From UHGV virus genome UHGV-2038699: 25,477 nt of DNA, one strand, 5' to 3'. The notes beneath the pieces were generated by a model that saw nothing but the letters and a program-made list of their open reading frames with translations, did no database searches and was not told the DNA's origin. Source of the DNA: a virus. Below are positions 1 to 25,333 of the stretch, one piece after another; the stretch's first letter is position 1; every line of letters starts with the position of its first letter. The position numbers and the translations under genes were made by a program.

Positions 1-549
1 TCAGCTAGCTGGAAACTTTTTATACAGAGTTGAGAGCCCTACTCCATACGTTTTTGATACGCTTTGTCGTGATTCACCGGTTGCCATCCGCTCCCCCATT
101 TCCCGCCATTGCTCATCCGTGAACTTAGGCCTGCGACCACCAACTCGCCCTTTTGCCCTGGCTACGGCCAGCCCTGCTAAGGTACGTTCGCTATTAAGAT
201 CAGATTCATATTGTGCTGCGGAAAGGATGTTACGAAAGTTATAGCGGCCGCTGGCTGTTTTGAGATCCACGCCATCGGTAATACTGCGGAAGTTGATACC
301 CTTTTCCTGTAACTGCTGGAACATCAACAGCGCATGCAGAACGTTGCGGCCTATCCTGTCCAGCTTCCAGACCACCAGTTCATCCCCCGGCTGCATAATG
401 GCGATCAGCCGTTTTAGAACCGGCCGATTCGATTTCCTCCCGCTGGCATGCTCTTCAAAAATTTTCTCACAACCCGCTGACTTGAGCGCCGTTAGTTGCA
501 ATTCAGTGTCCTGGTGGTTTGTTGATACTCGGGCATAACCGTAAATCAT
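1..549 (-). CDS. pin: Serine-recombinase DNA invertase (Pin/Gin/Hin/Cin family)
   Basis: Translation from the ATG at 549 begins MIYGYARVSTNHQD with the catalytic Ser context (YARVST) of small serine invertases; C-terminal HTH. AGGAG RBS upstream. The ORF track extends to 594 via a GTG, but the ATG at 549 fits the family N-terminus. Confidence 0.85.
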   Translation of the reverse strand: MIYGYARVSTNHQDTELQLTALKSAGCEKIFEEHASGRKSNRPVLKRLIAIMQPGDELVVWKLDRIGRNVLHALLMFQQLQEKGINFRSITDGVDLKTASGRYNFRNILSAAQYESDLNSERTLAGLAVARAKGRVGGRRPKFTDEQWREMGERMATGESRQSVSKTYGVGLSTLYKKFPAS

Positions 550-553
550 GGGA

Positions 554-580
554 TTTCTCCTGTTATGAAAACAGGAGAAA
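554..580. promoter_or_regulatory. Perfect 10-bp palindrome (TTTCTCCTGT / ACAGGAGAAA) overlapping the invertase RBS
   Basis: Arms at 554-563 and 571-580 are exact reverse complements around a 7-nt spacer; the arm on the mRNA contains the AGGAG Shine-Dalgarno. Function (operator or RBS-sequestering hairpin) is inferred. Confidence 0.4.
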
Positions 581-601
581 CGGCGAAGCATCACCAGATT
601 T

Positions 602-1090
602 TTGATGGTTATAAAAAAGGTTGGTTTGGGAGAAACGATAAATAAAGCCTCCGGAGCTATGCAGAAATCGGCTAATGGATCTGATATTTCTGATGTATCA
701 GCCTTCCGAAATGCGCTCCAGTTAGGGACCGCCGCAACACGAGATGTTGGAGCAGATAATGCCTCGAAGTTACTGGATTTAGACAGCTTCAGGTCAATGA
801 TGTCAGGGAATGGCTACATCTACATTCCATGCATTGCGACGACAGGAAACCCGGTGAAACTTATGTTGCAGTGGGGAACGGTGGCAACACAAAAGGGAGC
901 TGATGCTGGATATGCCTTACCATTTGCTTTTCCCTATGCAGGCTTATTTGCGACCGGAAACCGTGGAACATCTGGCTACAATGCCGCGATGAATGTGCGT
1001 ATTGCCAGCAGAACGCATATCAGTATTCAGAACTGGTCGCCATCCGGAGAGGGCACCGAAGATTGTTGTTTTATCGCGCTGGGGTATTAA
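602..1090 (+). CDS. Alternative tail-fibre C-terminal (variable) cassette, promoterless in this orientation
   Basis: The ORF opens on TTG directly at the crossover site and encodes VGLGE... in the same frame as LGLGE in the expressed fibre. No independent RBS or ATG start. Expected to be fused to the constant N-terminal part after inversion. Confidence 0.6.
   Translation: MMVIKKVGLGETINKASGAMQKSANGSDISDVSAFRNALQLGTAATRDVGADNASKLLDLDSFRSMMSGNGYIYIPCIATTGNPVKLMLQWGTVATQKGADAGYALPFAFPYAGLFATGNRGTSGYNAAMNVRIASRTHISIQNWSPSGEGTEDCCFIALGY
609..634. repeat. Invertase crossover site, left (hix/gix-like 26-bp site)
   Basis: TTATAAAAAAGG-TT-GGTTTGGGAGAA. The half-site GGTTTGGGAGAA and the central TT are identical to the reverse complement of the site at 2518-2543; overall resembles hix/gix sites as I recall them. 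Confidence 0.7.
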
Positions 1091-1092
1091 GA

Positions 1093-1509
1093 ATGAATAA
1101 ATTTTATAAAGGCTCTTTCTATCCGAAAGCACTAAAAGAGGTATATATCAGCGCCGGTTCATGGCCTGAAAATGGCGTTGATGTTGATGATGAAACAATG
1201 GCAATTTACACAGGCGTAGCACCAGAAGGTAAAACGCTGGGGGCTGACAAAGATGGTAATCCTGCGTGGATTGATATCCCGCCACTCTCCGCTGAACAAC
1301 AGATTATTCAGGCTGAACAGAAAAGAACGGTATTGCGTTCTATGGCTGATAAGGAAATAGTCTGGAGACAGGATGCTTTTGATGCGGAAATTGCGACGGC
1401 AGAAGAAACCGCCGCGTTGTCTGAATGGAAAAAATACCGGGTCTTGCTGATGCGCGTTGATACATCAAATCCCGTCTGGCCTACGCCTCCGGGGGAGCAG
1501 GCCAATTGA
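1093..1509 (+). CDS. Alternative tail fibre assembly chaperone (Tfa'), silent orientation
   Basis: ATG at 1093 follows the upstream stop (1088-1090) by 2 nt; C-terminus ...NPVWPTPPGEQAN parallels the expressed chaperone end (...INWPAPPEA). Convergent, overlapping 3' ends (1481-1509). Confidence 0.6.
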   Translation: MNKFYKGSFYPKALKEVYISAGSWPENGVDVDDETMAIYTGVAPEGKTLGADKDGNPAWIDIPPLSAEQQIIQAEQKRTVLRSMADKEIVWRQDAFDAEIATAEETAALSEWKKYRVLLMRVDTSNPVWPTPPGEQAN

Positions 1510-2074
1510 TATCCGGCGCGGTGCTGGTATCCGTTGCCGTCACTGCGTCAATGTAATCAAGCACGGCGTTAAGCCGGGTTGTTTCTGCCTGCGTCAGCTT
1601 CCGCCCGGCCTGTAATTTCAGCTGAATCAGGCTGATGGAAGCCATTGCAGCATCAATCAGTGACTGGCGCTGTGCTTCTGCCGCTTCTACTGCGGCACCG
1701 TGTTGTGCCTCAGTATCTGTCACCCATTTCTCACCATCCCATTTATCATATGGCGTTAACGGTGAAAGCGTGACATAACCGTTTTTGATGGCACCGATAT
1801 AATCCACTGTAACAGCAGCACCATTTTCGATTGAGTAAACAGTCTCATTGCGATGGTCTTCTTCATGGCTCCATCCCTTACCTGTAAATACTGCCACTCT
1901 TCCCGGAATGTTTTCGCCAGGGTCAATACCAGTGGAACAGGCGGGCATACTTACGCCAGTATTAATATATTCATCAGACCAGCCCGTATACTCAGATGTT
2001 TCAGCATCATAATAAAAACAACGCATATCGCCCGGCACTGTAGCCAGCCCATTTTCATCAAAAACAGGTTTCAT
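1481..2074 (-). CDS. Tail fibre assembly chaperone (Tfa / Mu U-like)
   Basis: Start ATG overlaps the fibre stop (TAATG); GAGGG RBS; sits directly downstream of the fibre gene; sequence and position typical of tail fibre assembly proteins. Confidence 0.7.
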   Translation of the reverse strand: MKPVFDENGLATVPGDMRCFYYDAETSEYTGWSDEYINTGVSMPACSTGIDPGENIPGRVAVFTGKGWSHEEDHRNETVYSIENGAAVTVDYIGAIKNGYVTLSPLTPYDKWDGEKWVTDTEAQHGAAVEAAEAQRQSLIDAAMASISLIQLKLQAGRKLTQAETTRLNAVLDYIDAVTATDTSTAPDINWPAPPEA

Positions 2075-5326: not shown

Positions 5327-6067
5327 TTAATTAGGCGCGGTAGTATTCCCGCTGCCATTCTGCACACCGCCATGGGTATGCTGGATGAGGCTCTTTCCTC
5401 CAGCCTTCACATCGTTAGTCACCGTCACCGGCCCAAGCATCGTCGCAGTACCGCCACTTTCGCCCATTCCCTGAGACAGATTGCCATTAATCGTTACGTT
5501 GCCGTTCAGCGTGATAGTCGGGGATGTGATTGTCGTTCCACCTTCAGCCGTAGCCGTGAGCTGGCCCGGTGTTTGAACGGTGATGTTATGTCCTGCGGCA
5601 ACCTCTACGAACGCCGCACCATCATCGGTTCGCAGCTGCGCGGCGCTGGTACTGATACCGCTGATTTTCTGTGCTTGCGACTGCGGGCCAACGATGGCGA
5701 ACGCATCAGATAAGTCATGCTGTCGCGGATCGACGGTCTCCTGAACGCCGCCGCTCTGCCACCAGAAATCGATGCAACGGTCGGCAAAGATCAGCAGGCA
5801 CTCGTCGCCTTCTTTTACCGGAAAGGTCAGCGTGCAACCGCCGCCGCGCGGGAAGATAACCGGCACATCCACCAGCGGTTTTAATTCGGTGGAGCCATCG
5901 CCAACAATACCGCGAAGCGCTACCTCTACTGTGCAGGTAACAGTGTCAGGATCGAACGACTGAATGATGCCGGGCATCGCTACGCGCATCTGGGTAGACA
6001 CCGAATCGGCAATGGCCTGCGCGGTCTGCTGCTCACCCCCGATCTGTGATTGAGTTGGAATTGGCAT
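5327..6067 (-). CDS. Baseplate spike / assembly protein V (gp5-like OB-fold N-terminus, beta-helical C-terminus)
   Basis: N-terminal region (GIIQSFDPDTVTCTVEVAL...VPVIFPRGGGCTLTFPVKEGDECLLIF) matches the phage baseplate V family; C-terminal repetitive TITSPTITLNGNVTINGN and an HTHGG motif typical of spike tips. Confidence 0.75.
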   Translation of the reverse strand: MPIPTQSQIGGEQQTAQAIADSVSTQMRVAMPGIIQSFDPDTVTCTVEVALRGIVGDGSTELKPLVDVPVIFPRGGGCTLTFPVKEGDECLLIFADRCIDFWWQSGGVQETVDPRQHDLSDAFAIVGPQSQAQKISGISTSAAQLRTDDGAAFVEVAAGHNITVQTPGQLTATAEGGTTITSPTITLNGNVTINGNLSQGMGESGGTATMLGPVTVTNDVKAGGKSLIQHTHGGVQNGSGNTTAPN

Positions 6068-6078
6068 AAAACCCCCAT

Positions 6079-6101
6079 AAAAAAACCAGCCGAAGCTGGT
6101 T
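6079..6101 (-). terminator. Intrinsic terminator-like hairpin (CCAGC-cgaa-GCTGG followed by U7 on the minus-strand transcript) immediately upstream of the V RBS
   Basis: Stem 6086-6090 / 6095-6099, then a run of 7 A on the plus strand (6079-6085), i.e. U7 on the minus transcript; the V RBS (GGGGG) starts 2 nt after the U-tract. Confidence 0.55.
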
Positions 6102-6289
6102 TGGTATCAATTATCTCTTAGTAACTAAGCTACATCAGTGTGAAGTAAGGCTTTTCCGCTGCAATGGCACACATTCACAAGGTGTATTAGGATATGTTTG
6201 CAACAAGTAAGCATTGAAAATCAATTTCAGCCATGAAGCCGCCATAGAGTGGACCTGCACCATCGCATTATTGACTACAGGAGTAACAA

Positions 6290-6580
6290 ATGGGATTTAG
6301 ATTTCGTAAAAGAATCCGGATTGCGCCCGGACTCGCGATCAACATTAGTAAAAGCGGAGTAAGCACTTCAATTGGTGGTAAAGGTTCCACCATTAACATC
6401 GGAAAAAAAGGCGTAAAGATGACAAATGGCCTTCCCGGCACGGGGCTGTCGCATACCACTAACCTTTACTCTCCCGGGAAATCGACAGAAAAAAAACAAC
6501 TTACTCATAAGCAAAAAATAATTAGAAACATCCTGTTCGTAATTATTGTGTTTATTATAATTAAAGCTCAATATTTTTGA
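6290..6580 (+). CDS. DUF4236-like small membrane protein (N-terminal MGFRFRKRIRIAPGLAINISKSGVSTSIGGKG motif, C-terminal TM helix)
   Basis: ATG at 6290 with CAGGAG RBS 6 nt upstream; opposite strand to all structural genes; its own terminator follows; AT-rich relative to flanking genes; C-terminal hydrophobic segment ILFVIIVFIIII. Confidence 0.65.
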   Translation: MGFRFRKRIRIAPGLAINISKSGVSTSIGGKGSTINIGKKGVKMTNGLPGTGLSHTTNLYSPGKSTEKKQLTHKQKIIRNILFVIIVFIIIKAQYF

Positions 6581-6585
6581 CGCAT

Positions 6586-6617
6586 GCCCGCCTATCTGGC
6601 GGGCTATTTTACTTTTC
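6586..6617 (+). terminator. Intrinsic terminator of the DUF4236-like gene
   Basis: GCCCGCC-tatct-GGCGGGC stem-loop followed by TATTTTACTTTTC, 6 nt after the stop codon. Confidence 0.65.
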
Positions 6618-6954
6618 GGCAGTCGTATGTTGCATACTGACGCGGCGAATCCATGCTGGCTTGCAGCCACTGTGCGTTGAGAATGGCTTTGCCGTTGCGC
6701 TTGATGTACTCAAGCCCAACCCAGCGGCCGGGTTGATTAGTTGCAACCGTCCATTCCATCTTGAGATTTTGATAATCTTCCTTGGCTTTCAGAAAGGTCA
6801 TTTTCTGGTTTTCTGGCTTTACACCATTAATATGCATAAAACCATCATTACCTGCGGTGAGGCGATATGGCCCGCATTGGGTATCAGCCATTGCAGTTGA
6901 AGCTCCGACCAACGAAAGAACGGCTCCGCAGATAACATTCCTAATTTTTGTCAT
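6604..6954 (-). CDS. Secreted/periplasmic protein of unknown function, 116 aa, cleavable signal peptide, two Cys
   Basis: Starting at the ATG at 6954: MTKIRNVICGAVLSLVGASTAMA|DTQCGP (n-region K/R, hydrophobic core, AMA cleavage motif). Convergent with the DUF4236-like gene. The ORF track extends it to 7014, but that would overlap the hub gene. Confidence 0.6.
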   Translation of the reverse strand: MTKIRNVICGAVLSLVGASTAMADTQCGPYRLTAGNDGFMHINGVKPENQKMTFLKAKEDYQNLKMEWTVATNQPGRWVGLEYIKRNGKAILNAQWLQASMDSPRQYATYDCRKVK

Positions 6955-6955
6955 A

Positions 6956-8020
6956 TCACACCTGTACTTTTTGGAGCGTCGACTGACTATATAATTCACG
7001 ACTGCCACGCGCAAAGCACATCAAATCCATGTACCACGCCTGACCTCTGGTGTCGCCAGTATAGTCGATAGCTTTGACGATATAAACGCCATCCGTCGCA
7101 ATGCTGGCAGCCTGTGACGTCGTACCGGTCAGCACACGGTTGCCATTCTCTTCAGTTTCGGTGATACGCCCGGGCGACTGTGCGATTTCGCTATTACCGA
7201 GCGACGCGCGGTACACCGAAGCCTGATCGAGCTGGATAAGACCATTAATGCGGATGTTTGGGTTTATCAGGCACCGCACGTTTACGCCGCCGCCCATCGT
7301 CTGTTGCGGCATACCAATCAGGCCAGTATTGGCATTCAACACAATGGCTTCGTGAATATATTTATCCTCCGGCACCATCTGGACCTGACCATCCACCAGC
7401 TGCCATGTCGCTTTGCACTGCGCTGCAATATTATCCATCACGTTACGAGTGGATGAGTAAATCGCGCGGCCACGAGGAAACACGGTATCAGGAAAATCGC
7501 CGGTAATGCCCTGTGTCACGCCGAACACGTTGAAATCCTGCATCGTCGCCCGGTGCAGATCCGCAACGGTATAGCCAGCGGCAAGCGTAGTGATGGTAGT
7601 CGCGTAGAGGAACGCTTCATGATCTCCAATAGCCTGAATCAACACCCAGGAATCGGTAATGTTGTCCTTCCCGGTTACGGTAAAGCGAATATCACCGTCA
7701 AAAATCAGGCCGTAGTTCTGACCGTTCACCTGCCCTATCTGGTCTGGTGAAATCTCTCGGGCGACGCCGACCTGGCTCGCATCAACATCCGGCGCTATAC
7801 CGTCATACCCGGCAATGATGCGAATTTTGGCAAACTCCTGCCCCAGTATCTTGTTCGTGGTATCGGTCGAAAGGTTGTAAATTTTCACGTTCGCCACGCG
7901 CGGCCAGCGTGTGTCTGCCCACTCGATCTGGAACGTGACCTTAAAGTCAGACAGGGAAACGCCCTGCCCGTTCTGGTCCAACAGTTGCAGCTCAAAATGG
8001 CGCATCCAGTTAAGAGACAT
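6956..8020 (-). CDS. Baseplate hub / tail protein (P2 gpD / Mu gp44-like position)
   Basis: 354 aa, located between the tape-measure-proximal genes and spike V; assignment is by size and synteny only. Confidence 0.45.
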   Translation of the reverse strand: MSLNWMRHFELQLLDQNGQGVSLSDFKVTFQIEWADTRWPRVANVKIYNLSTDTTNKILGQEFAKIRIIAGYDGIAPDVDASQVGVAREISPDQIGQVNGQNYGLIFDGDIRFTVTGKDNITDSWVLIQAIGDHEAFLYATTITTLAAGYTVADLHRATMQDFNVFGVTQGITGDFPDTVFPRGRAIYSSTRNVMDNIAAQCKATWQLVDGQVQMVPEDKYIHEAIVLNANTGLIGMPQQTMGGGVNVRCLINPNIRINGLIQLDQASVYRASLGNSEIAQSPGRITETEENGNRVLTGTTSQAASIATDGVYIVKAIDYTGDTRGQAWYMDLMCFARGSRELYSQSTLQKVQV

Positions 8021-22252: not shown

Positions 22253-22471
22253 ATGAGTGATGAATACAAACAGAAAATCGGCATTCCAGATGACCATACA
22301 CTGGAGCTTGTCTCTTCTAACTGGAAAGGAGCTCGAAAAGGTCAGGATACCGATGAATACCTTTACCGTGAGTTGGACGCTGCGGGAAATGTAGTGGCCA
22401 CTTATGAAATTAAAGATTCAACTTCTATATATCCACCATTCGGAAGATCTATCTCTTATAAGAAGGTCTAA
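22253..22471 (+). CDS. Hypothetical 72-aa protein, opposite strand to the late operon
   Basis: ATG with AAGGA RBS 7 nt upstream; start is only 22 bp from the divergent small-terminase start; hydrophilic, slightly acidic; no family recognised. Confidence 0.45.
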   Translation: MSDEYKQKIGIPDDHTLELVSSNWKGARKGQDTDEYLYRELDAAGNVVATYEIKDSTSIYPPFGRSISYKKV

Positions 22472-25177: not shown

Positions 25178-25253
25178 TGGTGCTGGTTAACGGACTTGAA
25201 CCGCTACCCATTCGCTTACAAGGCGACTGCTCTACCATTGGAGCTAAACCAGC
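25178..25253 (-). tRNA. tRNA gene, anticodon UGU (Thr) by manual folding
   Basis: 76 nt with encoded CCA; 7-bp perfect acceptor stem, D-loop with GG, T-loop TTCAAGT, anticodon loop CTTGTAA. Confidence 0.6.
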
Positions 25254-25258
25254 ATGTT

Positions 25259-25333
25259 TGGCGGGACAGCGTGGGCTCGAACCACGATAAGAAGGTTAAC
25301 AGCCTTCCGTAATGACCTTTATACGACTGACCC
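25259..25333 (-). tRNA. tRNA-like gene, anticodon GUU (Asn) by manual folding; possibly degenerate
   Basis: 75 nt with CCA; T-arm CGTGG-TTCGAGC-CCACG; anticodon arm GAAGG-CTGTTAA-CCTTC; one mismatch each in acceptor and D stems. Confidence 0.45.

What the first reader, a model, noticed from the sequence alone, without database searches (positions are those of the whole stretch)
6290..6580. DUF4236-like membrane protein encoded antisense to the late operon
The N-terminal 35 residues (MGFRFRKRIRIAPGLAINISKSGVSTSIGGKG) match my memory of the DUF4236 signature, and the C-terminus is one strongly hydrophobic helix followed by a short tail. It has a strong RBS and a dedicated terminator and would be transcribed against late transcription, which suggests expression in the lysogen. 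I know of no assigned function for this domain.
Basis: partly seen in the sequence, partly recalled or inferred. Interest (0 to 1): 0.7.

Follow-up and report, generated by a model that had tools for sequence, protein, structure and literature searches.

The report
Prophage DUF4236 tail-anchored membrane gene
A small, real prophage gene of the uncharacterised DUF4236 family sits backwards inside the tail-gene operon and encodes a membrane-anchored protein; its function is untested, but its position suggests it helps the lysogen keep out other phages.

Summary
ORF 6290..6580 (+) encodes a 96-aa protein that matches Pfam DUF4236 over the full model (E 1.8e-20, 73.6 bits, cutoff 27). It has an AGGAG ribosome-binding site, its own intrinsic terminator and a C-terminal transmembrane helix. 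It lies antisense between the baseplate hub and central spike genes of a lambdoid-type late operon.

It is a real gene: pS 0.32 against pN 0.02, and 38.8% GC against 53-57% in the flanking genes. RefSeq already names it 'DUF4236 domain-containing protein' (WP_000506880.1).

- The N-terminal domain is predicted as a six-stranded, very basic beta-meander with no informative fold match.
- The family is large, with about 13,000 representatives at 50% identity. The short relatives listed by the two searches are mostly domain, linker and C-terminal anchor.
- In viral contigs, 18 of 25 sequence clusters sit in tail modules next to tape-measure, hub, spike or tip genes. Most are antisense and lie beside small exported proteins.

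No sigma-70 promoter was found above chance, and no function is published. The best guess, with low confidence, is a lysogen-expressed inner-membrane exclusion or defence factor, analogous in logic to HK97 gp15 and not homologous to it. Interest is moderate.

The parts
6279..6283 (+). Shine-Dalgarno AGGAG, 6 nt upstream of the ATG
   Evidence: Read from the sequence. The block TTGACTACAGGAG plus the ATG is the only upstream stretch conserved between the E. coli and Klebsiella-phage versions.
6290..6580 (+). DUF4236 ORF, 96 aa plus stop; identical to RefSeq WP_000506880.1
   Evidence: Pfam 73.6 bits; pS 0.318 against pN 0.020; GC 38.8% against 53-57% in the flanking genes.
6296..6469 (+). Coding region for the DUF4236 domain (Pfam residues 3-55; predicted six-strand antiparallel beta-meander, residues 7-60). 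Residues 1-60 carry 10 K/R and no D/E.
   Evidence: The invariant residues P13, G14, N18, K21, G29, G32, P49, G50 and G52 are present.
6470..6505 (+). Coding region for a variable, low-confidence linker (residues 61-72)
   Evidence: The pLDDT dips to 58 in this block. Its length and sequence vary among homologues.
6506..6574 (+). Coding region for the C-terminal transmembrane helix (residues 73-95), a tail anchor
   Evidence: AlphaFold2 helix 73-95 at pLDDT 86-95; hydropathy 2.57. Of 175 short homologues, 161 have a single C-terminal transmembrane segment.
6586..6614 (+). Intrinsic terminator for the + strand transcript (GCCCGCC-TATCT-GGCGGGC, then a T-rich tail). On the - strand the same hairpin has no U tract.
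   Evidence: -17 kcal/mol. Conserved among the E. coli copies.
6068..6278 (+). AT-rich (41% GC) upstream region where a promoter would have to lie; none identified
   Evidence: No + strand sigma-70 match. Best match 8 of 12, no better than shuffles. The region tolerates 11-bp and 34-bp indels among E. coli copies.
6083..6102 (-). Strong intrinsic terminator on the late-operon strand, immediately upstream of the gpV start; it marks the end of the accessory slot
   Evidence: Related phages keep a terminator at the same place with different stem sequences.
6604..6954 (-). Neighbouring late-strand gene: a 116-aa secreted protein with two cysteines (signal peptide, predicted 8-stranded beta-barrel). 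It is the constant occupant of the slot.
   Evidence: (phrog_3443).
5327..6067 (-). Central spike (gpV-type) gene flanking the slot
   Evidence: Pfam spike N-terminal domain at E 1.1e-41 plus the Apex motif.
6956..8020 (-). Baseplate hub gene (E217 gp41-like) flanking the slot
   Evidence: Pfam PF22759 at 26.7 bits, just under the cutoff of 27. The position is conserved in relatives.

Best explanation
The ORF is a genuine accessory ('moron'-type) gene of a lambdoid prophage with a contractile tail. It encodes a tail-anchored inner-membrane protein with three parts: an N-terminal DUF4236 domain that stays in the cytoplasm (a six-stranded, strongly basic beta-meander), a short variable linker, and a C-terminal transmembrane helix with almost nothing beyond it. 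The gene has its own ribosome-binding site and its own terminator, and it is much more AT-rich than its surroundings. It is nested antisense in the late operon between the baseplate hub and the central spike.

Most likely mechanism (inferred, not shown): the gene is transcribed at a low level from the repressed prophage. During lytic growth it is damped by converging, antiterminated late transcription, following the logic of a noncontiguous operon. The protein acts at the cytoplasmic face of the inner membrane as a superinfection-exclusion or anti-phage factor. Its target would be the step at which an incoming tail (tape measure, hub, spike) opens a channel and delivers DNA. This is the same logic as the HK97 gp15 moron, without homology to it.

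Shown here: gene reality, family membership, predicted architecture, moron anatomy, and recurrent placement in tail modules. Inferred: N-in topology, expression in the lysogen, and exclusion activity.
For: Family and architecture:
- Pfam DUF4236 at 73.6 bits.
- AlphaFold2 at pLDDT 82.8 gives six strands (7-60) and a helix (73-95).
- Residues 1-60 carry 10 K/R and no D/E. Across homologues the domain net charge averages +9.3.
- Of 175 short homologues, 161 have one C-terminal transmembrane segment, and 149 of those have 10 or fewer residues after it.
- K/R residues are more frequent before the helix than after it. Vibrio versions place an SH3_3 domain after the helix. Both are consistent with an N-in topology.

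Real gene and moron anatomy:
- pS 0.318 against pN 0.020.
- GC 38.8% (GC3 38%) against 53-57% (GC3 62%) in the flanking genes.
- Dedicated + strand terminator.
- Present in 29 of 5426 complete E. coli genomes.
- The same slot holds other genes in E. coli G3/10 and Citrobacter phage Omnitron.

Recurrent context:
- The same antisense slot holds a DUF4236 gene in Hafnia prophages (58% aa identity) and in the temperate Klebsiella phages RCIP0034 and GZ7 (about 62% over residues 1-75, about 50% full length).
- The best 80 IMG/VR loci fall into 25 clusters, and 18 lie in tail modules. Sixteen were placed by flanking markers and two by Pfam. Of the sixteen, 13 are antisense to the flanking tail genes.
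- The slots are spike|hub, hub|TMP, gpM|TMP, gpK|gpI and chaperone|TMP. Two further clusters lie in lysogeny modules.
- Neighbours are repeatedly small secreted proteins, lipoproteins or N-anchored proteins.

Precedents:
- HK97 gp15 is a moron between the tail chaperone and tape-measure genes, and an inner-membrane exclusion protein expressed from the prophage (PMC3594210).
- The phi80 defence gene taiEcA is antisense inside the Q late operon, is expressed in the lysogen and is reduced by Q (PMC11364771).
- In phage 80alpha the inhibitor gene ith-1 is nested antisense in the cI operon that carries the defence gene tha-1, forming a noncontiguous operon (PMC11087260).
- The window has the tRNA-holin-lysozyme-Rz layout that follows Q in Klebsiella phage GZ7.
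Against: - No promoter was found upstream. None was found on the + strand, and the best match (8 of 12) was equalled by 153 of 200 shuffles. The upstream region is poorly conserved.
- There is no match to any PADLOC defence model and no functional PHROG or NCBIfam annotation.
- The conserved domain is predicted to be cytoplasmic, which is an unusual side of the membrane for blocking entry.
- Other DUF4236 proteins occur in virulent and jumbo phages, on a plasmid-like contig, in cassette arrays and in chromosomal contexts. A tail-specific exclusion role therefore cannot be general to the family.
- Tail regions are known insertion hot-spots for morons of many kinds, so position alone is weak evidence of function.
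- The 80 loci analysed are those closest to the query and are not a random sample of the family.
Confidence: 0.4

Rival explanations
1. A membrane-acting toxin or abortive-infection module. The tail-anchored protein depolarises or perturbs the inner membrane when triggered or over-produced. It is kept in check by antisense transcription, either from late read-through or from a dedicated antisense RNA that ends at the - strand terminator at 6102..6083.
For: - It is a small, very basic protein with one hydrophobic helix.
- A promoter-like site on the - strand at 6571..6542 (9 of 12) and a strong - strand terminator at 6102..6083 would bracket an antisense RNA of about 450 nt covering the whole ORF.
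- One SH3-type relative lies next to a HEPN AbiU2 gene.
- Relatives occur in cassette arrays (integron-like, by my inference) and on a plasmid-like contig.
Against: - The 9 of 12 promoter match is within chance for this AT-rich stretch: 2 sites found against a shuffle mean of 1.9.
- The - strand terminator is conserved in related phages that lack DUF4236, so it belongs to the slot and not to this gene.
- The conserved part of the family is the 55-aa soluble domain, not the helix, unlike type I toxins.
- There is no PADLOC hit.
Confidence: 0.15
2. A function in the phage's own lytic cycle. Examples are a membrane-associated helper or regulator of genome delivery, tail or baseplate assembly, or lysis timing, expressed early or constitutively and not specifically in the lysogen.
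For: - The gene is repeatedly placed next to tape-measure, hub, spike and tip genes in unrelated tail types.
- It is co-oriented with the tail genes in 3 of 16 clusters and in phiCD38-2.
- DUF4236 genes also occur in virulent and jumbo phages that have no lysogenic state.
Against: - It is antisense to the tail operon in 13 of 16 clusters, which is a poor design for co-expression with tail genes.
- It is dispensable: closely related phages such as the isolated Citrobacter phage Omnitron lack it.
- It has a foreign base composition.
Confidence: 0.15
3. A lysogenic-conversion factor unrelated to phage-phage conflict. The envelope-associated protein would change host physiology, for example stress tolerance, envelope properties or host colonisation, in the way lambda Bor and Lom do.
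For: - It has moron anatomy.
- It lies next to genes for secreted proteins and lipoproteins.
- Chromosomal, non-prophage relatives exist.
- Two clusters sit in lysogeny modules.
Against: - Its predicted functional domain is cytoplasmic, not surface-exposed.
- The strong bias toward TMP, hub and spike slots, as opposed to the ends of tail operons, has no obvious explanation under this reading.
Confidence: 0.15
4. A non-functional or spurious ORF, such as a shadow of antisense sequence or a decaying remnant.
For: No promoter was detected. The gene is short.
Against: - The Pfam match is at E 1.8e-20.
- The pN/pS ratio is about 0.06.
- The protein is identical across prophages whose DNA differs by 5-8%.
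- It has a strong ribosome-binding site and a terminator.
- It is conserved in the same slot at 50-60% identity in other genera.
Confidence: 0.02

Closest known systems
Pfam PF14020 / DUF4236 (uncharacterised domain family)
   Same: Full-length match to the model above the curated cutoff, all invariant residues present, and the domain at the extreme N-terminus as in 240 of 257 relatives. RefSeq already uses this name for the identical protein.
   Different: Nothing structural differs. The family has no known function, so membership says nothing about mechanism. This member is the minimal architecture of domain, linker and C-terminal anchor. Others add SH3_3, TM2, FtsK-gamma or long helical C-termini.
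HK97 gp15 moron (inner-membrane superinfection-exclusion protein; PMC3594210)
   Same: A small inner-membrane protein encoded by an add-on gene inside the tail operon next to the tape-measure gene. Some DUF4236 genes occupy exactly that chaperone|TMP slot. It is expressed from the prophage and blocks genome entry in a tail-dependent way.
   Different: There is no sequence relationship. gp15 is YebO-like, whereas this protein matches only DUF4236 at E<=1. The predicted topology is also different (C-terminal anchor). Exclusion activity has not been tested here.
phi80 taiEcA/atiEcA and 80alpha tha-1/ith-1 noncontiguous operons (PMC11364771, PMC11087260)
   Same: A gene nested antisense within a long phage operon, next to a co-oriented small gene. 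In those systems the arrangement ties expression of an anti-phage gene to the lysogeny-lysis switch.
   Different: Those proteins are soluble (Tai about 26 kDa; Tha is a HEPN RNase) and unrelated in sequence. The co-oriented neighbour here is periplasmic and also occurs without DUF4236, so a defence and counter-defence pair is not supported.
Classical inner-membrane exclusion proteins (P22 SieA, T4 Imm)
   Same: Phage-encoded inner-membrane proteins thought to block DNA entry (from established knowledge; SieA in PMC10883804, listed).
   Different: There is no homology, they have different membrane topologies, and they are not encoded in tail modules.

Membership tests
Pfam DUF4236 (PF14020) | HMM score above the curated gathering threshold over most of the model | tested here: met
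   73.6 bits against a cutoff of 27; E 1.8e-20; model positions 1-54 of 55.
Pfam DUF4236 (PF14020) | Conserved P/G-rich signature (PGxxxN...KSG...G..G...PG.G) | tested here: met
   Invariant columns M1, P13, G14, N18, K21, G29, G32, P49, G50 and G52 are all present in the window protein.
Pfam DUF4236 (PF14020) | Domain located at the extreme N-terminus of the protein | tested here: met
   The PGxxxN motif starts at residue 13 in 240 of 257 relatives, including this one. Profile hits start at residue 1 in most of the 150 listed representatives.
Moron (Juhala/Hendrix sense, as summarised in PMC3594210) | Nucleotide composition different from the surrounding genes | tested here: met
   38.8% GC (GC3 38%) against 53-57% (GC3 about 62%) for gpV, hub and TMP.
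Moron (Juhala/Hendrix sense, as summarised in PMC3594210) | Present in some and absent from other closely related phage genomes | tested here: met
   Absent from E. coli G3/10 and Citrobacter phage Omnitron, which share the flanking hub and spike genes at about 93% identity. Present in 29 of 5426 E. coli genomes.
Moron (Juhala/Hendrix sense, as summarised in PMC3594210) | Own terminator | tested here: met
   A + strand hairpin of 7 G-C pairs plus a T tract at 6586-6614.
Moron (Juhala/Hendrix sense, as summarised in PMC3594210) | Own promoter | tested here: inconclusive
   No + strand sigma-70-like site. Best match 8 of 12, equalled in 153 of 200 shuffles. The Klebsiella orthologue has a 10 of 12 site (5 of 200 shuffles).
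Moron (Juhala/Hendrix sense, as summarised in PMC3594210) | Expressed from the repressed prophage | not testable with these tools
   This needs RNA or protein data from a lysogen.
Tail-anchored inner-membrane protein | A single transmembrane helix at the extreme C-terminus, no N-terminal signal sequence, and the bulk of the protein in the cytoplasm | tested here: met
   Met by prediction only. Hydropathy 2.57 at residues 77-93; AlphaFold2 helix 73-95; basic, non-hydrophobic N-terminus. K/R bias before the helix and SH3_3 after the helix in Vibrio relatives. Actual insertion and topology were not tested.
HK97 gp15 / YebO family | Sequence homology to gp15/YebO | tested here: not met
   The Pfam scan at E<=1 returned DUF4236 only. 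gp15 is described as YebO-like. No direct pairwise comparison was run.
Known anti-phage defence systems (PADLOC-DB v2) | Match to any model of a defence-system protein | tested here: not met
   No families matched at E<=10 for this protein or for its neighbour.
Noncontiguous operon | A gene on the opposite strand nested between genes of one operon | tested here: met
   All flanking late genes are on the - strand. It is the only credible antisense gene in the late operon of Klebsiella phage GZ7.
Noncontiguous operon | Overlapping convergent transcripts that regulate each other | not testable with these tools
   This needs strand-specific transcript mapping with and without induction.
Type I toxin-antitoxin | A very small hydrophobic toxin with a dedicated cis-antisense RNA | tested here: inconclusive
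   At 96 aa with a conserved soluble domain it is atypical. The - strand promoter-like site at 6571..6542 is only 9 of 12 and within chance.

The most novel reading that the evidence does not exclude
DUF4236 plus a C-terminal anchor defines a large, unrecognised class of phage-borne inner-membrane exclusion or defence proteins. They are planted, usually antisense, beside the tape-measure, hub, spike or tip genes of unrelated tail types. The conserved, highly basic cytoplasmic beta-meander would intercept the incoming genome, or the cytoplasmic end of the tail-derived channel, on the inner face of the membrane. Late transcription would switch it off during the phage's own lytic cycle.
Probability: 0.2. 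Interest if true: 0.75.

Novelty: new member of a known kind. Interest (0 to 1): 0.45.

Why it matters
DUF4236 is a large family, with about 13,000 representatives at 50% identity, and it has no function assigned. I found no published study of it in the held library. This locus is a clean, minimal and experimentally tractable E. coli example.

The comparative pattern found here turns a 'domain of unknown function' into a specific hypothesis: genome-entry exclusion or defence, coupled to the lysogeny-lysis switch. The pattern has four elements:
- a tail-anchored architecture;
- a very basic domain predicted to be cytoplasmic;
- repeated insertion, mostly antisense, next to the genes that build the membrane-penetrating end of the tail;
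- neighbouring genes for small exported proteins.

Simple plating and DNA-entry assays could test this. If it is wrong, the locus is an ordinary prophage accessory gene.

Tried and rejected
- **Solved structures by sequence:** only noise, best E 0.48.
- **Foldseek against BFVD:** returned only other DUF4236 proteins.
- **PADLOC and NCBIfam:** no hits. PHROGs hits were all 'unknown function'.
- **Literature:** 'DUF4236' appears in one paper, in passing. The 'PF14020' hits are unrelated Plasmodium gene identifiers.
- **Promoter search:** nothing above chance upstream. A TGGCAC motif at 6165 resembles half of a sigma-54 site, but the -12 element is absent, so I rejected it by eye.
- **Obligate pair with the secreted neighbour:** rejected, because the neighbour occurs without DUF4236 in G3/10 and Omnitron and the two proteins are predicted to lie on opposite sides of the membrane.
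- **Invertible switch between the two convergent genes:** suggested by the chimeric protein P0114. Rejected because there are no meaningful inverted repeats at the junctions and the only contig looks like a misassembly of unrelated phage parts.
- **The - strand terminator at 6102..6083 as part of a DUF4236-specific antisense unit:** rejected, because equivalent terminators precede gpV in relatives that lack DUF4236.
- **Structure of the neighbour:** a generic 8-stranded beta-barrel that does not indicate a function.
- **Homo-oligomer or complex prediction:** could not be run with the tools available.

Full report
**1. The observation**

The + strand ORF at 6290..6580 exists exactly as described: ATG start, 96 aa, N-terminus MGFRFRKRIRIAPGLAINISKSGVSTSIGGKG. 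Pfam-A gives a single hit, PF14020 DUF4236. It aligns residues 3-55 to model positions 1-54 of 55, at E 1.8e-20 and 73.6 bits against a curated cutoff of 27.

- An AGGAG ribosome-binding site sits 6 nt before the ATG.
- Five nucleotides after the stop codon there is a hairpin of 7 G-C pairs followed by a T-rich tail, with a hairpin energy of -17 kcal/mol.
- The last 20 or so residues are strongly hydrophobic, with a 17-aa Kyte-Doolittle mean of 2.57.
- All neighbouring genes are on the - strand and are tail genes: a gpV-type central spike (5327..6067; Pfam N-terminal domain at E 1e-41 plus the Apex motif), a 116-aa ORF (6604..6954) and an E217 gp41-like baseplate hub (6956..8020).

**2. It is a real, selected gene that is already annotated**

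The cassette occurs in 29 of 5426 complete E. coli genomes. NCBI's pipeline names the identical protein WP_000506880.1 'DUF4236 domain-containing protein'.

Between the window and a diverged E. coli copy there are 21.5 synonymous and 4.5 non-synonymous differences, giving pS 0.318 and pN 0.020. Three other copies differ only synonymously.

The ORF has 38.8% G+C (GC3 38%), against 53-57% (GC3 about 62%) for the spike, hub and tape-measure genes. This is the compositional signature of an add-on gene.

**3. The prophage**

The window runs, on the - strand, through tRNA-Asn and tRNA-Thr, a lambda S-type holin, lysozyme, Rz/Rz1, a Rha-like gene, terminase, head genes, a DUF3383 sheath, tube, an SLT-bearing tape measure, baseplate and tail fibres.

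Klebsiella phage GZ7 has the same late-gene order. It is plainly temperate and lambdoid, with integrase, CI, Cro, CII, O/P and the Q antiterminator directly upstream of its tRNAs and lysis genes. Its DUF4236 gene is the only credible opposite-strand gene in the late operon.

I therefore infer a Q-type, antiterminated late operon for the window as well. I cannot show it, because Q would lie outside the window.

**4. Anatomy of the slot**

Between the hub and the spike there is an accessory slot.

- Its constant occupant is the 116-aa secreted protein with two cysteines. This gene starts one base after the hub stop codon.
- The second position is variable. It holds the antisense DUF4236 gene in E. 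coli, in Hafnia (58% aa identity) and in Klebsiella phages (about 62% over residues 1-75, about 50% full length). It holds a 53-aa - strand ORF in E. coli G3/10. It holds a 128-aa secreted-protein ORF in Citrobacter phage Omnitron.
- The slot ends with a strong - strand intrinsic terminator right in front of the spike gene's ribosome-binding site (6102..6083). Relatives keep a terminator at this spot with different stem sequences. It therefore belongs to the slot and not to DUF4236.
- The 6586-6604 hairpin has a U tract only on the + strand. It should stop the DUF4236 transcript but not late transcription.

No sigma-70-type promoter stands out upstream of the ORF, and that region tolerates 11-bp and 34-bp indels.

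**5. The protein**

AlphaFold2 with a 55-sequence alignment (mean pLDDT 82.8) predicts six antiparallel strands (residues 7-60), a low-confidence linker and a helix (73-95).

- Residues 1-60 carry ten K/R and no D/E. Across relatives the domain net charge averages +9.3.
- Gly and Pro mark the turns, and nine turn or signature residues are invariant.

The family is large: 13,011 representatives at 50% identity with E<=1e-3, and 9,033 at E<=1e-10. Among the 257 relatives listed by the two searches:

- 175 are 80-125 aa long. Of these, 161 have exactly one transmembrane segment at the C-terminus, and 149 of those have 10 or fewer residues after it.
- 72 of the 76 longer ones also have a hydrophobic segment.
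- The signature starts at residue 13 in 240 of 257.

Vibrio versions place an SH3_3 domain after the helix, and K/R residues are enriched before the helix. Both fit an N-in topology, meaning a cytoplasmic DUF4236 domain on a C-terminal anchor. This is prediction, not measurement.

**6. Where relatives sit**

I checked the contexts of independent relatives.

- Leclercia lambda-like prophage: between the tape measure and gpM, antisense.
- Pseudomonas syringae B728a: between gpK and gpI.
- A siphovirus group: between the tail chaperone and the tape measure.
- C. difficile phiCD38-2 gp15: between the chaperone and the tape measure.
- A Pasteurella phage: a DUF4236-TM2 protein near a baseplate hub gene.

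A scan of IMG/VR found at least 514 relatives. The best 80 loci fall into 25 clusters at 70% identity.

- Sixteen clusters (67 loci) are flanked by recognisable tail markers. Thirteen of these are antisense and three co-oriented.
- Two more clusters are next to tail genes, as shown by Pfam.
- Two clusters are in lysogeny modules, beside a CI-like repressor or an integrase.
- One lies between the portal and the large terminase, antisense.
- One lies beside a HEPN AbiU2 gene.
- Three are unresolved.

The neighbours in the tail slots are repeatedly small exported proteins of unrelated sequence: secreted proteins, lipoproteins or N-anchored proteins.

More distant relatives occur on a plasmid-like contig, next to an IS element, in a cassette array (integron-like, by my inference) and in chromosomal contexts. 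They also occur in virulent and jumbo phages.

There are two caveats. The 80 loci are the ones nearest the query. I also did not measure the background frequency with which any accessory gene lands in tail modules.

**7. Mechanism**

Nothing is published on DUF4236 in the held library, and it matches no curated defence model. The best-supported reading combines two precedents.

- First, HK97 gp15 is the original moron. It lies between the tail chaperone and the tape measure, inserts into the inner membrane, is expressed from the prophage and blocks genome entry in a tail-dependent manner (PMC3594210).
- Second, genes nested antisense in phage operons couple anti-phage functions to the lysogeny-lysis switch. 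Phi80 taiEcA is antisense in the Q late operon, is made in the lysogen and is reduced when Q is expressed (PMC11364771). The 80alpha tha-1/ith-1 pair behaves similarly (PMC11087260).

By analogy, the DUF4236 protein would be made in the lysogen, sit in the inner membrane with its basic sheet on the cytoplasmic face, and interfere with genome delivery by incoming phages. Late transcription would run over it when the prophage is induced.

I give this about 0.4 overall. I rate the structural and genetic description much more secure (about 0.9) than the exclusion function (about 0.3). These component figures are my own judgement.

The rivals are:
- a membrane toxin or abortive-infection module (0.15);
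- a role in the phage's own lytic cycle (0.15);
- a host-fitness conversion factor (0.15);
- a spurious ORF (0.02, effectively excluded).

**8. Comparison, novelty and verdict**

The protein is a bona fide member of DUF4236, since every defining feature tested was met. It is not a member of the gp15/YebO family or of any known defence family. Any resemblance to those is one of logic only.

It meets the moron criteria of composition, patchy distribution and own terminator. The promoter criterion is inconclusive, and prophage expression is untestable here.

The gene itself is already in databases under the DUF name, so this is a new member of a known kind. The added value lies in the family-level regularities: the tail-anchored architecture, the strongly basic domain predicted to be cytoplasmic, and the mostly antisense placement beside genes for the membrane-penetrating end of the tail. 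These give an uncharacterised family a concrete, cheap test.

Interest is 0.45. This is a tidy, testable lead, not a surprise.

Noticed in passing
[not shown]
   Followed up: partly
window 6083..6102 (-); L002 about 2235-2262; L015 about 1385-1415; L017 about 5893-5915: A strong intrinsic terminator on the late-operon strand sits immediately upstream of the spike (gpV) ribosome-binding site. It is kept in related phages with different stem sequences. This implies that late transcription must read through it by antitermination, or that gpV has its own promoter.
   Followed up: partly
L002 2279..2665 (-); L015 1458..1619 (-); L018 6418..6894 (-): The hub-spike slot holds alternative cargo in relatives. 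Citrobacter phage Omnitron has a 128-aa secreted protein and E. coli G3/10 has a 53-aa ORF in place of DUF4236. One Hafnia prophage has a different 158-aa secreted protein in place of the usual neighbour.
   Followed up: partly
window 6542..6571 (-): A promoter-like site (TTGAGC-18-AATAAT, 9 of 12) lies on the - strand inside the 3' end of the DUF4236 ORF. With the terminator at 6102..6083 it could give an antisense RNA of about 450 nt, but the match is within chance for this AT-rich stretch.
   Followed up: no
window 1..2074: This looks like an invertible tail-fibre segment. A tail-fibre C-terminal fragment (602..1090, Gp53-like_C) and a tail-fibre assembly gene (1063..1509) lie on the + strand, opposite a second assembly gene (1481..2074) on the - strand. 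The near-identical prophage in E. coli 873.10 carries a frameshifted recombinase next to this region (L001 6895..7460).
   Followed up: no
window 22253..22471 (+): A second opposite-strand ORF (72 aa, no Pfam match) lies between the small terminase and a Rha/ORF11CD3-type gene in the late region. It may be another nested antisense accessory gene.
   Followed up: no
window 25178..25333 (-): tRNA-Thr(TGT) and tRNA-Asn(GTT) lie just upstream of the holin gene. Klebsiella phage GZ7 has the same arrangement, with its tRNAs directly after the Q antiterminator gene (L109 14938..16059).
   Followed up: partly
L108 3001..3201 (protein P0114): A 66-aa database protein fuses DUF4236 residues 1-39 to the last 27 residues of the neighbouring secreted protein, which is on the opposite strand in the window. 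The only contig mixes unrelated phage modules, and no inverted repeats flank the junction in the window. It is probably a misassembly and not a real inversion.
   Followed up: partly
L011 6001..6504; L073 2944..3534: Vibrio-type relatives have the architecture DUF4236, transmembrane helix, SH3_3. One sits in an array of small same-strand cassettes (integron-like, by my inference). Another lies beside a HEPN AbiU2 gene.
   Followed up: partly
L021 6409..6744; L005 3857..4240; L019 6783..7175; L008 6568..6804: In unrelated siphovirus tail modules, the gene next to DUF4236 encodes a small lipoprotein (lipoboxes LAGC and MAGC) or an N-anchored periplasmic protein with paired cysteines. None of these is similar in sequence to another.
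   Followed up: partly
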